From: a virus
Taxonomy: Duplodnaviria; Heunggongvirae; Uroviricota; Caudoviricetes
Virus record (IMG/VR): IMGVR_UViG_2802429237_000002
Location: 1 to 30,679 of that record
Length of the DNA stretch: 30,679 nucleotides
Reading direction: 5' to 3' (one strand)
This document shows, one piece after another, positions 353 through 22,143 of this stretch. Every line of letters begins with the position of its first letter. The stretch's first letter is position 1. The notes under the pieces are model-generated. The model did no database searches. It was given only the letters and a program-made list of their open reading frames with translations, and was not told the DNA's origin. The position numbers were made by a program, and so were the translations under genes.

Positions 353-697
353 TTAGTCCTTGCGTAGTTCTCTGATTCTTCTGTAAGTCTCTGGTGCTTT
401 GTTTCCGTGTATCTTCATTTCAGACTTCAACAGAGCAACGAGGGAATCCCATTCGTTGAGGATGCCTTTGAATGCCGGAACGCGCTTTGCAACCTTGTCG
501 AATGAATCTCTGATTTCTGGAATCTGCTCAACAAGTGCAACGCATCGTCGGAAATCGGCTGCGTCATGTGGAGCGCCGAAGTGATGACCATAGATATTCT
601 TTTTCAGTCCACATGCGATTGAGGCAAGAGTTGCGCTACTGATGCCGACATCGCCAGTCGTTTGCCATTTCAAAATCTTCATAGCCAAATCTGACAT
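353..697 (-). CDS. Hypothetical protein (114 aa)
   Basis: Intact ORF with GGAGA Shine-Dalgarno-like sequence upstream of the ATG at 697; no family recognised. Confidence 0.5.
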   Translation of the reverse strand: MSDLAMKILKWQTTGDVGISSATLASIACGLKKNIYGHHFGAPHDAADFRRCVALVEQIPEIRDSFDKVAKRVPAFKGILNEWDSLVALLKSEMKIHGNKAPETYRRIRELRKD

Positions 698-841
698 TTC
701 TTGTCTCCATAAAACAAAACCCGCCGTAGCGAGTTCAGATAAAAGAAATCCCCGCGAGTGCGAGGATTGTTATTTATTGCCGATATTTACCTTTATCGCG
801 AATACCTTTACCGGTTTATCGCCGAAGTGCGGATGCTTCGT

Positions 842-1030
842 TTATATCAATCCCGCGTATTCTGACCGACGAATAAATAACTCTTCTCCGTTATGTATTG
901 CGACATAGCCGTAAACAGTTTTATGCATCACATCGAACTCATCCCATACGGAAACTCCACACTCTGCTAATGAGCAATTCAAATAATTCCCCGGGTGCTT
1001 GTCGGTGTTATTAATGAGGCGAATCCTCAT
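842..1030 (-). CDS. Hypothetical small protein (62 aa)
   Basis: ORF MRIRLINNTDKHPGNYLNCSLAECG..., same strand as neighbours; no family recognised. Confidence 0.4.
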   Translation of the reverse strand: MRIRLINNTDKHPGNYLNCSLAECGVSVWDEFDVMHKTVYGYVAIHNGEELFIRRSEYAGLI

Positions 1031-1268
1031 ATCTTATTCACTTTTGGCTGCAAGGTGTAGCCACCACGGTAAGCTCCATCAGCATGGGCGAATTCATATA
1101 CCTGTACACTATTACGATGTAGAAATAAAACATGCATATTTTTGATAGACTATGTCAATGATTTTTTAAATATTTATTGTCTTATCAAGAATGTCTGTAA
1201 TACCCCGATTAACCCGTCACATATAAACAATTTATAAAAATTTTCTTAACGCTATCACATTATTTAAT

Positions 1269-1568
1269 TTACCTTTCCCGATAGGTATATAGTTCATCAT
1301 GTGCAACCTTGCGATTGCGATGTATTCCCATTTCTTTCTCTACGCGTATTGCTGCATTGCGTAATGCTCTTGAGGTCGCGACTTCTCTTGAACTTACATT
1401 TTTTAATGTAGCCGATTTAATGCAACGTTGAATTTGCCTCTGGATATACATCCGCTGGTCTGTCTGAGTCTCCTGACGATAATCCATCAGCACATCTTGC
1501 CAGCGAGCCGCAGCTCTGCGCCAAAGCCCTTTATTTTCAAGTTCTTCAGCTTTTTTATCTTTAACCAT
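1269..1568 (-). CDS. PerC-family-like transcriptional regulator (99 aa from the internal ATG)
   Basis: Motif EELENKGLWRRAAARWQDVL resembles the PerC/Pch signature as I recall it; ATG at 1568 preceded by AGGAG RBS (track ORF begins at an upstream GTG, 1583); sits in an AT-rich island. Confidence 0.45.
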   Translation of the reverse strand: MVKDKKAEELENKGLWRRAAARWQDVLMDYRQETQTDQRMYIQRQIQRCIKSATLKNVSSREVATSRALRNAAIRVEKEMGIHRNRKVAHDELYTYRER

Positions 1569-1594
1569 ACAGTCTCCTATCACACTAAATATTA

Positions 1595-1630
1595 AATAAT
1601 AACTATCAGGTTTATCAGATAGTTATTATT
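1595..1630. promoter_or_regulatory. Perfect 13-bp inverted repeat (AATAATAACTATC / GATAGTTATTATT) with a 10-bp spacer, in a divergent intergenic region
   Basis: Read directly: arms at 1595-1607 and 1618-1630; lies about 27 bp upstream of the PerC-like start and 37 bp upstream of the 1667 ORF; candidate operator. Confidence 0.5.
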
Positions 1631-1666
1631 ACAGTTAAGTATAGGGGGCGGTAATAATAATCTAAG

Positions 1667-1972
1667 ATGGTGGTGAAATTCAAGCCAGATGCCGTTATGC
1701 AACTCAACAGAAATAAGCTGTTGCTTTTTATCTCACTATTCATTTGTCTCATTCCCAGCTATACTCATTGTTCACACAACACAAAAGGCATAGAAATGAC
1801 AGTGTATGGCATATCAGAAAACAGTATTGTTCACTTACGTGAAAAAAATGGAGAATGGCTTGTGTTGCACATTATTAAAAATGGCGACATTACATATCAC
1901 CTCAAAAAAACAGATACAGATACAGACAAAGAAATGAACGTCACACTTCAGGATATTATCCCCAATAAATAA
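1667..1972 (+). CDS. Hypothetical exported or membrane protein (signal-peptide-like N-terminus)
   Basis: N-terminal region MQLNRNKLLLFISLFICLIPSYTHC has a charged n-region and hydrophobic core; very AT-rich codon usage suggests a laterally acquired moron; weak RBS, start uncertain (1667 or 1697). Confidence 0.4.
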   Translation: MVVKFKPDAVMQLNRNKLLLFISLFICLIPSYTHCSHNTKGIEMTVYGISENSIVHLREKNGEWLVLHIIKNGDITYHLKKTDTDTDKEMNVTLQDIIPNK

Positions 1973-2101
1973 TCAAATGAGCGTGGCGCACGATGCCCCG
2001 CGCTATTCTACTTATCACCCCAGCGGCAAATCGAAAACACAACCAGTGCTACCGCCATTGCAATTCCTACCGTTGCGAATGCTTCAGGCCAGCTCATTGA
2101 C

Positions 2102-2287
2102 TCACCTCCTGCAGCGGTTCTGGCAGCGACATCCAATTGATTGCATCGCATTCAGATATTTGTTGTCATTAACAGAACCGAAACTCTCTCGCTTAAGTAA
2201 TTCCTCTCTCGATGGCATTGGCTTTACGCGTTGGCGAATAATCATTTCTGCCGGAAGAATGCCGGGATTGTATGCAAGTCCTCTCAT
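2102..2287 (-). CDS. Hypothetical small protein (61 aa)
   Basis: ATG at 2287 preceded by GAGGAA RBS; lies just downstream of the stop of the 97-aa gene; Cys-rich C-terminus (CRCQNRC). Confidence 0.35.
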
Positions 2288-2297
2288 GGTAAATTCC

Positions 2298-2591
2298 TCA
2301 GTCATTACTGATAGCACCATAGCGTGAGCGGTAATTACGCAGGCGCGGGTCAATTTCAGGGAAGTGGGTATATGTGGCTTTGCGGAATGGTCGGATTGAT
2401 GTCTGGTAAATTCGCTCGCGTTCTTCTTTCTCTGCAAGCCATATACAATGGCGAAATTCCTTTTCCTCTTTCGTTTCCTGCGGTAGCGACATTATCAGGT
2501 CGTAGTTTTTTCTGAATTTATCCAGCACCTCCAATACGGAATTGCCGGAACAGCGGCGCGCGTCGTCCGCACCATATAGAGGCGCTGGCAT
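2298..2591 (-). CDS. Hypothetical protein (97 aa)
   Basis: ATG at 2591 preceded by AGGAG RBS; follows the exonuclease gene on the same strand. Confidence 0.5.
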
Positions 2592-2607
2592 GGTTTTCTC
2601 CTGTTGA

Positions 2608-3156
2608 TTATTTAGCTAACTTTTTCCAGATCGCTGAAACGTATTTGGCTTGGTGAATGGCATCATCAAGCGCGTTGTGGCGAGTTCCTTTGAATGGCAT
2701 ATCTCGCTTAGGGTCGAATCCTATTACCTTCCCAAGTTCGACGATTGTTCTTACGTCGCGGTCATTCCACCACTGCCACGGAACTGGCTGCCCTGTCAGC
2801 GAATAACTGTTGCGGAGAATAACGCAGTCAAATGATGCTCCATTCCCCCAAACCTGAACGAGTTTGTGGTTGGCGTTCTTTATGATGAATTCAGATAACC
2901 ATGAAAGAGCCGTTGAAAGCTCTTGAGTGTTGCTGGTTAGCGATTTTCTGGCTTCTTCACTCTGTTCCATCCACCATAAAATCGTTGAAGCGTCAGGACG
3001 TGCCCGATATCGCATTGATGACTCAAGCGAGATATTTACCGAGAACTCTTCTCCTGTTTCTCCGGTATTCGGGTCAAAGAATACCGCCCCAATAGAAATA
3101 ACTGGCGCGTATGGCCCGTTGCCCATTGTTTCAAGGTCAACCATTAAGTGATTCAT
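2608..3156 (-). CDS. DEDDh (DnaQ-like) 3'-5' exonuclease
   Basis: Exo I motif VDLETMG near the N-terminus and H-x4-D motif (HNALDDA) near the C-terminus; AAGGA RBS; part of the recombination module. Confidence 0.8.
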   Translation of the reverse strand: MNHLMVDLETMGNGPYAPVISIGAVFFDPNTGETGEEFSVNISLESSMRYRARPDASTILWWMEQSEEARKSLTSNTQELSTALSWLSEFIIKNANHKLVQVWGNGASFDCVILRNSYSLTGQPVPWQWWNDRDVRTIVELGKVIGFDPKRDMPFKGTRHNALDDAIHQAKYVSAIWKKLAK

Positions 3157-3164
3157 GTAAGTCC

Positions 3165-3680
3165 TTAAATTGCGTGAATAGCGTGACGAGGGAAGGGGAG
3201 AGTTACTGGTGCAAAGGGGATATCGTCGTCAAAATCCATAGGTGGTTCGCTGTGATTCCCTTGCTGCTGAGGTTGCTGTCTTTGTTGCTGACCGTTATTT
3301 CGCTGAGGTGAAGACTGTTCATTGCCTCCTTGCTTGCCACCAAGCATTTGCATGGTTCCACCAACGCCCACGATGACTTCGGTAGTGAACCGATCCTGTC
3401 CGCTTTGATCCTGCCATTTTCTTGTCCGCAATTTGCCTTCAAGATAAACCTCAGAGCCTTTTCGCAGATATTCGCTGGCAATTTCTGCCAGTTTCCCGCT
3501 CATTACCACACGGTGCCACTCCGTCTGCTCCTTTTGCTCTCCAGTTTGCTTATCACGCCATTGTTCTGACGTAGCAACGGTAAGGTTTGCAAATGCCGTT
3601 CCTGATGGTGAATATCTGATTTCTGGATCATGCCCAAGGCGACCAATAATGATCACCTTATTTACGCCTCTGCTTGCCAT
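3165..3680 (-). CDS. ssb: Single-stranded DNA-binding protein (SSB) with a C-terminal extension beyond the acidic tip
   Basis: OB-fold N-terminus ([21 protein letters not shown]...), Gly/Gln-rich linker and acidic [10 protein letters not shown] motif, followed by 15 extra residues ([15 protein letters not shown]) before the stop. Confidence 0.9.
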
Positions 3681-5453: not shown

Positions 5454-5589
5454 AAAGAAGATTTCCAATAATCAGAACAAGTCGGCTCCTGTTTAGTTAC
5501 GAGCGACATTGCTCCGTGTATTCACTCGTTGGAATGAATACACAGTGCAGTGTTTATTCTGTTGTTTATGCCAAAAAAAAAGGCCACCA

Positions 5590-6324: not shown

Positions 6325-6371
6325 CTGCCAATCTGTTCCGTTTGGCTACCAGCGTCCTGCTGATGGCTTAA

Positions 6372-6454
6372 ATTTAAGATTTCTTTAATTAATGATCAAG
6401 GGTATTTTTGAAGAAAACTTAAATTTTATTGTGGCGCTTAAGTTTTGCTTTGAT
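6372..6454 (-). promoter_or_regulatory. OL operator cluster and pL promoter region
   Basis: Three 18-bp pseudo-palindromes matching the OR operators: ATTTAAGATTTCTTTAAT (6372-6389), 6407-6424 and 6437-6454; candidate -35 TTGATC on the minus strand at 6394-6399. Confidence 0.5.
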
Positions 6455-7138: not shown

Positions 7139-7204
7139 AGTTAAGACATCTTAAATAAACTTGACTTAAGATTCCTTTGATAGATAATTTAAGTGTTCTT
7201 TAAT
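7139..7204. promoter_or_regulatory. OR operators (OR3-OR2-OR1) with pR (and divergent pRM)
   Basis: 18-bp operators AGTTAAGACATCTTAAAT (7139-7156), ACTTAAGATTCCTTTGAT (7164-7181), ATTTAAGTGTTCTTTAAT (7187-7204); pR -35 TTGACT (7161-7166) and -10 GATAAT (7183-7188), 16-bp spacer. Confidence 0.7.
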
Positions 7205-7218
7205 TTCGGAGCGAGTCT

Positions 7219-19977: not shown

Positions 19978-22143
19978 ATGGCCGACGAAAACAGACTCAA
20001 TTCGATTCTGTGTAAGTTTGACGCGGACTGGATGGCGAGCGATGAAGCCAGAACCGAGGCGACAAATGACCTGTATTTTAGCCGAGTGTCGCAATGGGAT
20101 GACTGGCTATCAAACTACACGACCCTGCAATATCGCGGACAATTCGATGTTGTTCGCCCGGTGGTCAGGAAGCTGGTCGCAGAGATGCGCCGGAACCCTA
20201 TCGACGTTCTCTTCCGACCAAAAGACGGTGCTAATCCTGATGCAGCCGATGTGTTGATGGGGATGTATCGTACTGATATGCGCCATAACACGGCAAAGAT
20301 TGCCGTTAACGTTGGCGTTCGTGAGCAGATAGAGTCCGGCGTTGGTGCATGGCGTCTGGTCACGCAGTACGAAGACAACGATCCAACAAGCAACAATCAG
20401 GTAATTCGACGCCTGCCAATCCATGAAGCCTGCTCACACGTCATATGGGACGCAAACAGCAAGCAGATGGATAAGAGCGACGCTAAGCACTGCACGGTGA
20501 TTAACGCTTTGTCACGCAATGGCTGGAAAGAGTTCGCAGAGGATTACGGTATTGATCCGGATACCTTGCCATCTTTCCAGAATCCGAACGATACATGGCT
20601 GTTCCCTTGGGTATCGAATGATGTCGTCTACGTCGCTGAGTATTACGAGGTCGAAGAGAAGAAAGAGAAGGTCTTCATCTACCGCGACCCGCTGACAGGT
20701 GAGCCGGTCAGCTATTACCAGCAGGATATCAAAGACGTCATCGACGACCTGGCTAATCGTGGATTCATTAAGGTAGCAGAGCGTAAGGTCAAGCGTCGGC
20801 GTGTGTATAAGTCGATCATCACCTGCACGCAGATACTGAAAGACCGCGAGAAGATAGCCGGAGAGCATATTCCAATCGTTCCAGTGTATGGCGAATGGTC
20901 ATTCGCTGGTGACAAGGAGTGCTACGAAGGAGTGGTAAGGCTGACGAAAGACGGTCAACGCCTTCGTAACATGATCATGTCATTCAACGCCGATATTGTT
21001 GCTCGCTCACCGAAGAAGAAACCGACCTTCTTCCCTGAGCAAATCGAAGGCTACGAATACATGTACGGTGGAAATGATGACTATCCGTACTATCTGCAGA
21101 ACAGGACCGATGAAAACGGTAACGACCTGCCGATTGGTCCAATCTCCTACATGGAAAACCCTGAAGTGCCGCAAGCCAACGCTTACATGCTTGAGGCTGC
21201 CACCAACGCAGTGAAAGAGGTGGCTAGTCTTGGTGTGGATGCGCAGGCAGCAAACTCTCAGGTCGCTTTCGATACCGTCAATCAACTGAACATGCGGGCA
21301 GACCTTGAGACATACGTGTTTCAGGATAACCTGGCTACCGCAATGCGACGTGATGGCGAGATTTATGCCTCAATGGTCAACGATATTTATGACATTCCTC
21401 GTCATGTAACGCTGACACTTGAAGATGGAAGCGAGAAAGACGTTCAACTCTATGCGCAAGTTGTCGATTACCAGTCTGGCAATGTGGTCACACTCAACGA
21501 CATTCGCGGTCGATATGAGTGCTATACAGACGTTGGGCCATCCTTCCAGAGTATGAAGGAACAGAACCGCGCAGAGATTCAGGAGTTGCTCACCAAGGTT
21601 CCGCAAGGTACTCCAGAGTTCCAGATGCTGATGCTGCAATACTTCACGCTGCTTGACGGTAAAGGCGTCGAGATGATGCGAGAGTACGCGAACAAGCAAC
21701 TGGTGATGATGGGGCTGAAGAAACCAGAAACACCTGAAGAGATGGAGATGGTACAGCAGGCTCAACAGCAGCTGCAGCAGCCATCAGCAGAGCAAATTCA
21801 GGCACAGGGTATCCTTCTGCAAGGTCAGGCTGAATTGCTCAAGGCAGAGAACCAACAGGCGCAGATTCAGGTTGAAGCCGCCAAGGTTGAAGCCCAAAAC
21901 CAACTCAACGCCGCGAAGATTGCAGAAATCTTCAACAATATGGACCTCGACAAGCAGGCAGAACTGCGTGAGTACCTCAAGCTCGTAGGTCAATTCCAGC
22001 AACAGCGCAGCAAAGATGCTCGTGCTAACGCTGAGCTGCTTCTTAAAGATGCAGACCAGACTCATTCACAACGCATGGATTTCGCGAATCTTATGCGTCA
22101 AGTTCAAATCCCCTCCGGCGGAGTAGCCGAGACACCTCAATAA
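19978..22143 (+). CDS. Portal protein (P22 gp1-like)
   Basis: 721 aa; extensive similarity to P22 portal as recalled, including the Gln-rich C-terminal helical barrel region. Confidence 0.92.

What the first reader, a model, noticed from the sequence alone, without database searches (positions are those of the whole stretch)
1031..1972. AT-rich island with a PerC-like regulator, a divergent exported-protein gene and a perfect 13-bp palindrome between them
The segment is visibly more AT-rich than the flanking phage genes, suggesting separate acquisition. It contains a minus-strand gene with a LWRRAAARW motif I associate with PerC/Pch regulators, which in pathogenic E. coli prophages activate host virulence loci, and a divergent plus-strand ORF with a signal-peptide-like N-terminus. 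The shared intergenic region carries a perfect inverted repeat AATAATAACTATC-N10-GATAGTTATTATT (1595-1630), a plausible operator for autoregulation or host nucleoid protein binding.
Basis: partly seen in the sequence, partly recalled or inferred. Interest (0 to 1): 0.5.

Follow-up and report, generated by a model that had tools for sequence, protein, structure and literature searches.

The report
Prophage cargo block carrying a PerC-family regulator
An AT-rich, horizontally mobile 1.45-kb insert in a P22/Sf6-like Escherichia prophage carries a genuine but divergent PerC-family regulator gene with a lineage-specific perfect palindrome in its 5' region, while the neighbouring "exported protein" ORF looks dispensable and decaying; this is an ordinary new member of a known kind of phage cargo.

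Summary
The segment is the lowest-GC stretch of the window: 36% GC against a mean of 48%. A 99-aa minus-strand gene (1269-1568) matches Pfam PerC at 55 bits against a cut-off of 22.6. The 13-bp perfect inverted repeat at 1595-1607/1618-1630 is the only one of its kind in 30.7 kb.

The acquired unit is larger than reported, at 695-2148. It sits in the variable slot between xis and abc2 of a P22/Sf6-like prophage. It recurs at 97-99.7% identity in other lambdoid prophages, and part of it recurs at 93.5% on ~90-kb contigs that look like phage-plasmids.

perC is under purifying selection (dN/dS 0.07-0.29). The palindrome travels with perC, not with the divergent ORF. It is absent upstream of every perC relative at 66% identity or less.

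The 101-aa ORF has no family hit. It is deleted in the ~90-kb contigs, carries a nonsense mutation in four viral contigs, has lost its first ATG in two loci, and its signal-peptide-like segment is not conserved.

Whether the palindrome acts as a leader RNA hairpin or as an operator cannot be decided in silico. Activation of virulence genes cannot be assumed, because several PerC homologues are inactive or repress. Verdict: a new member of a known kind, of low to moderate interest.

The parts
695..2148 (.). Mobile AT-rich cargo block (GC 0.40) inserted in the variable slot between xis and abc2 of the PL operon
   Evidence: Matches L027-L030 over 695-2148 at 96.6-96.8%. Window 1000-2200 matches L017 at 99.75% and L019 at 98.8%, and 1000-2109 matches L020 at 98.4%. 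Homology to the best E. coli prophages stops at 714 and resumes at 2144. GC values.
1269..1568 (-). perC-like gene, 99 aa, PerC family (PF06069, PHROG 994)
   Evidence: Pfam 55.1 bits against a 22.6 cut-off. phrog_994 E = 4e-29. Family invariants L10 E11 R17 R18 A19 R22 W23 C49 M80 are all present. dN/dS 0.29, 0.19 and 0.07 against relatives.
1573..1577 (-). Shine-Dalgarno sequence AGGAG of perC
   Evidence: Read directly from the sequence. It is AGGAGG in the ~90-kb contigs.
1595..1630 (.). Perfect 13-bp inverted repeat with a 10-nt spacer, 26 nt upstream of the perC ATG; a cis-element that travels with perC
   Evidence: The arms are identical in all relatives of this lineage, with one substitution in the loop in the ~90-kb contigs. 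The exact pattern is found only in perC loci of this lineage. RNA core hairpin -11.8 kcal/mol.
1574..1645 (-). Extended imperfect leader hairpin predicted in the perC-sense RNA; its base pairs with 3 of the 5 Shine-Dalgarno nucleotides
   Evidence: MFE -19.9 kcal/mol, z = -3.0. The probability that the Shine-Dalgarno sequence is unpaired is 0.27-0.36 between 25 and 42 C. Prediction only.
1654..1683 (-). Sigma-70-like promoter candidate TTGAAT-18-TATTAT for perC; this would place the palindrome at about +17 to +52 of the transcript
   Evidence: 9 of 12 matches; the number of such sites in the region is not above shuffles. Other weaker candidates were read by eye: TATACT at 1643-1638 and TAATAT at 1594-1589.
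1624..1661 (.). Second inverted repeat, TTATTATTAC / GTAATAATAA (10-bp arms, 18-nt spacer). It shares one arm with the main palindrome and overlaps the -10-like hexamer
   Evidence: The arms are partly (ATT)n low-complexity sequence, so the significance is uncertain.
1667..1972 (+). Divergent ORFan (101 aa from ATG-1667, 91 aa from ATG-1697, 58 aa from ATG-1796); probably dispensable or decaying
   Evidence: No Pfam, PHROG or NCBIfam hit. AF2 single-sequence model has pLDDT 46.
1717..1966 (.). Segment missing from the ~90-kb phage-plasmid-like relatives; TTATTT microhomology lies at both ends of the deletion
   Evidence: The homologue L018 extends beyond both ends (window 1699-1981), so the change is a deletion in the ~90-kb contigs rather than an insertion here.
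1978..2003 (.). GC-rich hairpin between the convergent 29-aa gene and the small ORF; a possible bidirectional terminator that shields perC from upstream read-through
   Evidence: Folds at -14.2 kcal/mol (minus strand) and -14.8 kcal/mol (plus strand, z = -3.1). A cleaner GCGGGG...CCCCGC stem followed by a T-rich tail is present in the ~90-kb contigs. It was not flagged by the consensus scan.
2008..2097 (-). 29-aa hydrophobic peptide gene (MSWPEAFATVGIAMAVALVVFSICRWGDK) preceded by AGGAGG
   Evidence: Called as a 29-aa gene in L020 and L021.
1031..1268 (-). AT-rich (GC 0.315) 3' flank of perC, containing a Fic/Doc-like gene remnant at 1053-1127
842..1030 (-). 62-aa phage gene of unknown function (phrog_10916), part of the shared block
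   Evidence: E = 4.5e-36. About 84% nt identity to the 3' parts of DUF551-type genes in E. coli.

Best explanation
The region is a 1.45-kb AT-rich cargo block (695-2148). It sits in the hypervariable distal part of the PL (early-left) operon of a P22/Sf6-like lambdoid prophage of Escherichia.

Its one clearly selected gene is a PerC-family small regulator (1269-1568, minus strand). The gene is probably expressed as a 'moron'. A GC-rich hairpin (1978-2003) ends the preceding 29-aa peptide gene. A sigma-70-like promoter lies about 80-115 nt upstream of the start codon. During induction, N-antiterminated PL transcription would also read through the gene.

The 36-bp perfect palindrome belongs to the 5' control region of perC. 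It lies downstream of the best promoter candidates and 18 nt upstream of the Shine-Dalgarno sequence. The most likely reading is that it is transcribed and forms a leader stem-loop that modulates mRNA stability or translation. A protein operator is the close second reading.

By analogy with PerC and Pch, the protein would act in trans on AT-rich, H-NS-silenced promoters. Its targets are unknown and need not be the LEE.

The divergent 101-aa ORF is an ORFan remnant that is not needed by the module.

Shown: family membership, purifying selection on perC, mobility of the block, linkage of the palindrome to perC, and dispensability of the ORF. Inferred: the promoter, the terminator, the hairpin function and the anti-silencing mechanism.
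For: - Family membership: Pfam PerC 55.1 bits, PHROG 994, and the invariant LE..G.WRRAA.RW...C...MG residues.
- Selection on perC: dN/dS 0.29, 0.19 and 0.07. There are 0-2 differences per 300 nt in relatives whose neighbouring DNA differs by 2-8%.
- Mobility: the same flanks hold other cargo in E. coli prophages. The block is found in prophages next to yniD and next to torS, in 4 IMG/VR contigs, and in part on ~90-kb contigs.
- Low GC: 3.8 sd below the window mean.
- Palindrome and perC are linked. The ~90-kb contigs keep perC and the palindrome but lack the ORF. L018 keeps the ORF but has neither perC nor the palindrome. All 5 exact matches in IMG/VR are perC loci of this lineage.
- Leader hairpin: MFE -19.9 kcal/mol, z = -3.0, with its base touching the Shine-Dalgarno sequence. 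A promoter-like TTGAAT-18-TATTAT lies upstream of it.
- Geometry: 13-bp perfect arms with half-site centres 23 bp apart are unusual for a dimeric operator and typical of selection on base pairing (inference).
- Mechanism by analogy: Pch relieves H-NS/StpA/Hha silencing (PMC4764244).
Against: - No transcript data exist. The promoter call is a 9/12 consensus match in a region where such matches are no more frequent than in shuffles.
- The plus-strand RNA folds at least as well as the minus strand (-25.0 against -19.9 kcal/mol), so the transcribed strand cannot be inferred from the fold.
- All carriers of the palindrome are 93.5% identical or more. About 2.5 arm substitutions would be expected and 0 were seen (P about 0.08). 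There is no covariation, so the conservation is weak evidence.
- Occlusion of the Shine-Dalgarno sequence is partial and barely depends on temperature.
- The AF2 model of PerC shows no recognisable DNA-binding fold. Its best matches are generic TPR-like helical hairpins. The way it acts on DNA is therefore taken only from the literature on relatives about 32% identical.
- Some PerC homologues are inactive or repressive (PMC6265319, PMC11773190).
Confidence: 0.6

Rival explanations
1. The palindrome is a DNA operator. A dimeric or tetrameric DNA-binding protein (PerC itself, a host nucleoid protein, or another phage factor) would bind the two 13-bp arms and control perC and perhaps the divergent ORF.
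For: Perfect dyad symmetry in a divergent intergenic region. A weak promoter candidate, CTGATA-18-TAATAT (1618-1589, minus strand, 8/12, read by eye), would place the palindrome over its -35 hexamer and spacer. The AT-rich context is typical of H-NS targets. Pch-type proteins bind AT-rich promoter DNA (PMC4764244).
Against: The half-site centres are 23 bp apart and the arms are 13 bp and perfect, which is unusual for HTH operators. No further copy of the half-site exists in the prophage: the only other hit, at 21073 with 2 mismatches, is within chance. The palindrome does not resemble the P22-type OR/OL operators of this prophage. Fur, LexA, ArgR and IHF consensus matches are at background level. 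No palindrome is found upstream of perC relatives at 66% identity or less, so PerC autoregulation through such a site is not a family trait. The PerC model has no HTH.
Confidence: 0.3
2. The palindrome has no function. It would be a recent by-product of template-switch (quasipalindrome) mutation or of recombination at a mosaic joint between the perC module and the small-ORF module, and it persists only because the lineage is young.
For: It is found only in one lineage, 93.5% identical or more. No covariation is available. The arms are partly (AAT)n-like low complexity, and a second overlapping inverted repeat exists. L018 shows that the ORF module can exist without it, with homology starting about 60 nt to its right.
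Against: It lies between the promoter candidates and the ribosome-binding site of the one gene under selection. There are zero arm changes in lineages where the flanking intergenic DNA has changed. Long perfect palindromes are unstable in E. coli unless tolerated or selected (general knowledge).
Confidence: 0.12
3. The divergent ORF encodes a real secreted or envelope protein of 91-101 aa with a Sec signal peptide. It would be a lysogenic-conversion factor co-regulated with perC from the shared intergenic region.
For: In this allele the N-terminus has a basic n-region, a 12-residue hydrophobic core and small residues at -3/-1 (read from the sequence). NCBI's record for L016 lists a 91-aa protein. 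The frame upstream of M44 is open in both this window and the 80%-identical L018, with an in-frame indel. A hairpin follows the stop codon.
Against: No family hit. Only 5 homologue clusters among 5.8 billion proteins. It is deleted in the ~90-kb contigs. E63 is a stop codon in L027/L029/L030. ATG-1667 is lost in L020/L021. About 8 non-synonymous changes against 1 synonymous among close relatives. dN/dS against L018 is 0.44-0.55 on few sites. The hydrophobic core is broken in L018 (VLFSIPSTCLISD). There is no Shine-Dalgarno sequence before ATG-1667 or ATG-1697, and only ATG-1796 has AAGG. A terminator-like hairpin at 1705-1723 lies inside the supposed signal-peptide coding region. AF2 pLDDT is 46.
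Confidence: 0.12

Closest known systems
PerC (BfpW) of the EPEC pEAF plasmid and PchA/B/C of EHEC prophages (Pfam PF06069)
   Same: A small (about 90-105 aa), all-helical protein with the N-terminal LE..G(L/F)(W/Y/F)RRAA.RW motif, a conserved Cys and a C-terminal MG(I/L) motif. It is encoded on horizontally acquired, AT-rich DNA in Escherichia and is located in a prophage.
   Different: It is only about 32% identical to a 104-aa prophage-type PerC-family protein. Its best PHROG is 994 ('unknown function'), not the PHROGs annotated as transcriptional activators. tblastn at E <= 1e-3 finds no Stx-phage pch gene. The presence of a LEE in the host is unknown. The gene sits in the PL 'ea' slot next to xis rather than at the positions known for pch.
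PerC-family genes on E. coli plasmids and phage-plasmid-like elements (for example NZ_CP117002 at 66% aa, and IncK2/Z plasmids and phage phi456 at 57%)
   Same: They belong to the same subfamily and are full length. PGAP names them 'PerC family transcriptional regulator'.
   Different: Those relatives are followed by a MarR-family gene and an inverse-autotransporter adhesin gene, or are paired with a divergent HTH regulator gene. None has the palindrome or the small ORF.
PchD/PchE and PICI-encoded PerC-like proteins (EcCIEDL933, EcCICFT073, EcCIMP1_025)
   Same: They are divergent PerC-family members on mobile elements whose function is not LEE1 activation. This is a caution that applies here.
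   Different: They sit on satellites or other prophages. PchE represses csgD and curli, and EcCIMP1_025 represses LEE1 (PMC6265319, PMC11773190). No sequence comparison with them was made here.
Lambdoid-phage 'morons' (extra transcription units inserted between conserved genes)
   Same: The GC content is atypical. The block is inserted between genes that are adjacent or differently filled in related phages. It has its own promoter-like site and an upstream terminator-like hairpin.
   Different: No clear terminator was found downstream of perC. The promoter and the terminator are predictions only.

Membership tests
PerC family (Pfam PF06069) | Score above the curated gathering threshold of the family HMM over nearly its full length | tested here: met
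   55.1 bits against a 22.6 cut-off, E = 9.1e-15, protein residues 1-88 aligned to profile positions 1-83 of 90.
PerC family (Pfam PF06069) | N-terminal motif LE-x2-G-[LFM]-[WYF]-RRA-[AS]-x-RW, plus a conserved Cys (about position 49) and a C-terminal M-G-[IL] | tested here: met
   In a 23-sequence alignment of family representatives, L10 E11 R17 R18 A19 R22 W23 C49 M80 are invariant, and all are present in the window protein.
PerC family (Pfam PF06069) | Small size (about 80-110 aa) and location on a horizontally acquired element of Enterobacterales | tested here: met
   99 aa, in a P22/Sf6-like prophage. Relatives lie on plasmids, phages and PICI-like loci.
PerC family (Pfam PF06069) | Transcriptional effect on target promoters (LEE1/ler for PerC and PchA-C) by relief of H-NS silencing | not testable with these tools
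   Needs reporter or ChIP experiments. The literature shows the effect differs between homologues (PMC4764244, PMC6265319, PMC11773190).
Group 1 Pch (PchA/B/C), the LEE-activating subgroup | High sequence similarity to the 104-aa PchA/B/C proteins | tested here: not met
   32% identity over 82 residues to a 104-aa prophage-type PerC-family protein (WP_001303878). No tblastn hit to Stx phages at E <= 1e-3.
Lambdoid phage moron | Inserted between genes that are contiguous or differently filled in related phages, with atypical base composition | tested here: met
   The flanks 1-714 and 2144-3254 are 97.5-99.7% identical to E. coli prophages that carry other genes in between. GC is 0.40 against 0.48.
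Lambdoid phage moron | Own promoter and terminator | tested here: inconclusive
   There is a 9/12 sigma-70-like site at 1683-1654 and a hairpin of -14 kcal/mol at 1978-2003 upstream. No terminator was found downstream of perC. No transcript data exist.
Sec-exported protein (for the 101-aa ORF) | N-terminal signal peptide that is conserved among homologues and preceded by a usable start codon and ribosome-binding site | tested here: not met
   The hydrophobic core is degenerate in L018. ATG-1667 is lost in L020/L021. There is no Shine-Dalgarno sequence before ATG-1667 or ATG-1697. No signal-peptide predictor was available.
Intrinsic (Rho-independent) terminator (for the palindrome) | GC-rich stem followed by a U-tract | tested here: not met
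   Only 2 G-C pairs in 13, and no run of T on either strand. It was not reported by the terminator scan. The core hairpin is -11.8 kcal/mol. There is no Rfam match.
Operator of the resident prophage repressor (P22 c2-type) | Sequence similarity to the OR/OL operators of the same prophage | tested here: not met
   The OR/OL sites carry TTAAG-N-CTTAA-type dyads at 7140-7210 and 6370-6426. The palindrome shares no such half-site.

The most novel reading that the evidence does not exclude
This would be a distinct PerC subfamily (PHROG 994). It is carried by temperate phages and phage-plasmid-like elements, and elsewhere it is genetically linked to MarR-type regulators and inverse-autotransporter adhesins. 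Its regulon would be something other than the LEE. In this lineage, its expression would be gated by a dedicated switch built on the 36-bp palindrome, either a leader RNA stem-loop or an autoregulatory operator. That would make it a phage-borne anti-silencer with its own sensory input.
Probability: 0.15. Interest if true: 0.45.

Novelty: new member of a known kind. Interest (0 to 1): 0.25.

Why it matters
PerC/Pch proteins are the classic case of mobile-element regulators that rewire host gene expression by countering H-NS silencing. A divergent allele that moves between lambdoid prophages and phage-plasmid-like elements widens the known reservoir of such regulators. It is absent from 5,426 complete E. 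coli genomes, and its source appears to be an unclassified Escherichia.

The practical lesson is a caution for annotation. The PerC label does not predict virulence activation, and the neighbouring 'exported protein' is probably not a functional gene.

The palindrome is a clean, testable cis-element. It is confined to one near-clonal lineage, so its general importance is limited.

Tried and rejected
1. Near-identical DNA in public phage genomes and complete E. coli genomes: none for 1031-1972. In distant mode, only perC-coding similarity of 70% or less was found, and it never extends into the leader.

2. Palindrome as an intrinsic terminator or a known RNA: no U-tract, an AT-rich stem, not flagged by the scan, and no Rfam family.

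3. Palindrome as the operator of the resident P22-type repressor: no resemblance to OR/OL.

4. Fur, LexA, ArgR and IHF consensus matches: all at or below the background of the window.

5. RNA thermometer: the probability that the Shine-Dalgarno sequence is unpaired rises only from 0.27 to 0.36 between 25 and 42 C.

6. Strand assignment of the hairpin from G-U pairs: the plus strand folds even better, so this is uninformative.

7. Covariation test of the hairpin. I looked for intermediate relatives with a degenerate perC 5'-coding pattern in metagenome and GTDB contigs, and with a protein profile in IMG/VR. Everything found was either 93% identical or more with identical arms, or 66% identical or less with an unrelated upstream region. 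No test was possible.

8. A family-wide upstream palindrome: absent. Only one other sub-lineage has an 8-9-bp inverted repeat.

10. Fold of the small ORF: pLDDT 46, unusable.

11. dN/dS of the small ORF against L018: 0.44 for the C-terminal part and 0.55 for the N-terminal extension, on too few sites to separate coding from non-coding.
Full report
**What the window is.** The window is a P22/Sf6-like lambdoid prophage. Minus-strand genes for excisionase (1-231), a 114-aa protein, Abc2 (2298-2591; Pfam Anti-RecBCD_p2, E = 6e-63), a 3'-5' exonuclease, SSB, an Erf/Rad52-like protein, Kil and CIII form the early-left (PL) operon. A P22-type immunity region follows at about 6.4-7.3 kb. The window is identical over 1000-2200 to contig PTRM01000001 of Escherichia sp. 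MOD1-EC5350, where the prophage lies next to yniD/ydiY.

**Check of the observation.**
- GC is 0.361 for 1031-1972, against 0.482 for the window. The lowest-GC 942-nt window of the whole 30.7 kb starts at 1001, about 3.8 sd below the mean.
- The minus-strand ORF (1269..1583 as listed) most likely starts at ATG-1568, behind AGGAG, giving 99 aa with LWRRAAARW.
- The plus-strand ORF 1667-1972 (101 aa) exists.
- The inverted repeat AATAATAACTATC-N10-GATAGTTATTATT lies exactly at 1595-1630. It is the only perfect inverted repeat of 13 nt or more with a short spacer in the window. It folds far better than shuffles (DNA z = -7.0, 0 of 200).

**Extent and mobility of the island.** The acquired unit is larger than reported.
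- The best-matching E. coli prophages are 99.3-99.7% identical over 1-714 and 97.5-98.2% identical over 2144-3254. They carry other genes in between, such as DUF551, Ea22-like and small hypothetical genes.
- Four IMG/VR lambdoid contigs share exactly 695-2148 at 96.6-96.8%.
- Other prophages share the region at 98-99.7%. One is next to yniD, and others with a different integrase are next to torS.
- A set of ~90-kb contigs have phage-plasmid-like gene content (DUF968, PAPS reductase, Ea22, DUF551, Phd-Fic, Tad2-like, dUTPase). They share 1021-1716 and 1967-2135 at 93.5% and 88-89%.
- The block is absent from 50,697 phage records and 5,426 complete E. coli genomes at megablast sensitivity. At blastn sensitivity only perC-coding similarity of 70% or less is found.

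The 'separate acquisition' inference is therefore correct. The slot is the well-known variable region between xis and abc2.

**The regulator.**
- The 99-aa protein matches Pfam PF06069 (PerC) at 55.1 bits against a gathering score of 22.6. It matches PHROG 994 end to end (E = 4e-29).
- An exhaustive phmmer search of 1.84 billion cluster representatives finds only 57 clusters at E <= 1e-3.
- In an alignment of 23 of these, L10, E11, R17, R18, A19, R22, W23, C49 and M80 are invariant. All are present here.
- The gene is under purifying selection. dN/dS is 0.29 against the 93% relative, 0.19 against a 60% relative and 0.07 against 66% relatives.
- It is the least variable part of the block, with 0-2 differences in 300 nt where neighbouring segments differ by 2-8%.
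- It is only about 32% identical to a 104-aa prophage-type PerC-family protein. tblastn at E <= 1e-3 finds a single phage record, phi456 at 57%.
- The nearest relatives (57-66%) sit on E. coli plasmids.

**What PerC membership does and does not imply.** Pch activates LEE1 by displacing the H-NS/StpA/Hha silencing complex (PMC4764244). Only group 1 Pch proteins and PerC do this. PchD and PchE do not, and PchE represses csgD (PMC6265319). PICI-encoded homologues are inactive on LEE1, and EcCIMP1_025 represses it (PMC11773190, PMC6092414). Family membership supports 'small trans-acting modulator of AT-rich, silenced promoters'. It does not support 'virulence activator'. Whether the host has a LEE could not be checked.

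**The palindrome.** Three lines of evidence tie it to perC rather than to the divergent ORF.
- The ~90-kb contigs lack the body of the ORF but keep perC, its leader and both arms unchanged, with one substitution in the loop.
- The only divergent homologue of the ORF (L018, 80% nt) has neither perC nor the palindrome. It sits beside a hok-type toxin ORF.
- All five exact occurrences in IMG/VR are perC loci of this lineage, and there are none in GTDB species representatives.

The palindrome lies 26 nt upstream of the ATG and 18 nt upstream of the Shine-Dalgarno sequence. It is downstream of the only promoter-like site that passed the scan, TTGAAT-18-TATTAT at 1683-1654. It is also downstream of a second candidate read by eye, TATACT at 1643-1638. 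Either promoter puts it in the transcribed leader.

As RNA, the core stem is -11.8 kcal/mol. It extends into an imperfect helix of about 70 nt (-19.9 kcal/mol, z = -3.0) whose base pairs with three of the five Shine-Dalgarno nucleotides.

It is not terminator-like: it has 2 G-C pairs, no U-tract and no Rfam hit. It is unlike the prophage's own operators. It matches the Fur, LexA, ArgR and IHF consensus sequences no better than background.

Its geometry favours selection on base pairing over a classical operator, with 13-bp perfect arms and centres 23 bp apart. A weak promoter candidate overlapping it (CTGATA-18-TAATAT) keeps the operator model alive.

The decisive comparative test, covariation, is impossible. 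Every carrier is 93.5% identical or more, and all relatives at 66% or less have unrelated upstream regions without it. Zero arm changes where about 2.5 were expected gives P of about 0.08, which is only suggestive. The plus strand folds at least as well as the minus strand, so the fold does not identify the transcribed strand.

**The divergent ORF.** The evidence is against a functional exported protein.
- There is no Pfam, PHROG or NCBIfam hit.
- There are five homologue clusters among 5.8 billion proteins.
- Positions 1717-1966 are deleted in the ~90-kb contigs, between TTATTT microhomologies. L018 homology spans both ends of the gap, so this is a deletion there and not an insertion here.
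- A GAA-to-TAA nonsense change at codon 63 is seen in L027, L029 and L030. L028 matches the window over the same span at the same identity.
- ATG-1667 has been lost in L020/L021.
- About eight non-synonymous changes against one synonymous are seen among close relatives.
- dN/dS against L018 is 0.44-0.55 on few sites.
- The signal-peptide-like core LLLFISLFICLI becomes VLFSIPSTCLISD in L018.
- Neither ATG-1667 nor ATG-1697 has a Shine-Dalgarno sequence. ATG-1796 has AAGG 7 nt upstream, and gene callers elsewhere choose this 56-58-aa form.
- A terminator-like hairpin lies inside the supposed signal-peptide coding region (1705-1723).
- The single-sequence AF2 model is unusable (pLDDT 46).

The open frame upstream of M44 in both alleles, and NCBI's 91-aa call, keep a small residual probability for the longer product.

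**Architecture and likely working.** Reading along the minus strand, the order is:
1. DUF2737 gene, with its 3' end rewritten at the junction near 2144.
2. A 29-aa hydrophobic peptide gene with AGGAGG (2097-2008).
3. A GC-rich hairpin (2003-1978; about -14 kcal/mol on either strand). It could terminate both convergent units and shield perC from read-through.
4. The small-ORF remnant, on the opposite strand.
5. The promoter-like site, palindrome/leader and Shine-Dalgarno sequence.
6. perC.
7. An AT-rich tail containing a Fic/Doc-like remnant.
8. A 62-aa phage gene (phrog_10916).
9. The junction near 700.

This is the anatomy of a lambdoid 'moron' (inference). In the lysogen, perC would be expressed from its own promoter, probably H-NS-silenced and tuned by the palindrome. 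On induction it would also be read from PL under N antitermination. That is consistent with SOS induction of group 1 pch genes reported in PMC6265319.

**Verdict.** The finding is real and mostly well read. It is a new, rare allele of a known family in a typical cargo position. The palindrome is statistically solid, lineage-restricted and mechanistically unresolved. The 'exported protein' is probably a decaying ORFan.

Noticed in passing
window 2008-2097 (-), with 2102-2287 (-): A 29-aa hydrophobic peptide gene (MSWPEAFATVGIAMAVALVVFSICRWGDK) with an AGGAGG ribosome-binding site is conserved in the ~90-kb contigs and in other prophages. The adjacent DUF2737 gene has its C-terminal end rewritten by the mosaic junction at about 2144.
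   Followed up: partly
window 1053-1127 (-): A remnant of a Fic/Doc-family gene lies inside the AT-rich 3' flank of perC. It is 80% identical at nt level to part of the Fic gene of the ~90-kb contigs (L004 9639-9712), with a short protein match.
   Followed up: partly
L014 (ends at window 1583) and L021 (starts at window 1636): Two independent short-read assemblies break immediately beside the palindrome. This is probably an assembly-graph artefact of the perfect inverted repeat. It may also explain why the locus is under-represented in databases.
   Followed up: no
L023 (NZ_CP117002.1, 2501-5297), L015 (734-1717), L036-L038: The perC relatives at 60-66% aa identity are followed by a MarR-family regulator gene. 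In the 108-kb plasmid, an inverse-autotransporter (intimin/invasin-like) adhesin gene comes next, which suggests a perC-marR-adhesin module.
   Followed up: partly
L114-L120 (Erwinia, Pantoea, Lonsdalea and Chimaeribacter genomes and metagenomes): A different PerC sub-lineage has three direct repeats of TGAACCAACA about 60-100 nt upstream of the start codon. The repeats are conserved across genera and are likely a binding-site array.
   Followed up: no
L018 56-268 (-): The only divergent homologue of the small ORF lies next to a Hok/Gef-type toxin ORF (MKQQKAMLIALIVICLTVIVTALVTRKDLCEVRIRTGQTEVAVFTAYESEE) on a 640-bp metagenome contig.
   Followed up: no
window 1909-1926: A hexanucleotide repeat (ACAGAT)3 encodes TDTDTD in the small ORF. 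It varies between 3, 2 and 1 copies among relatives, which is a slippage hotspot.
   Followed up: partly
L039-L050, 71 nt upstream of the perC homologue: The perC sub-lineage at 43% identity carries an 8-9-bp inverted repeat, CTTATTGT(A)-N14/16-(T)ACAATAAG, with an inner GACAGTACTGTC palindrome upstream of the gene. It is the only other family branch with a notable upstream dyad.
   Followed up: no
window 5506-5553 and 6370-6426: There is an imperfect 22-nt inverted repeat (82%) at 5506-5553, and a 19-nt inverted repeat (89%) at 6370-6426. The second looks like the P22-type OL operator pair. The first was not examined.
   Followed up: no
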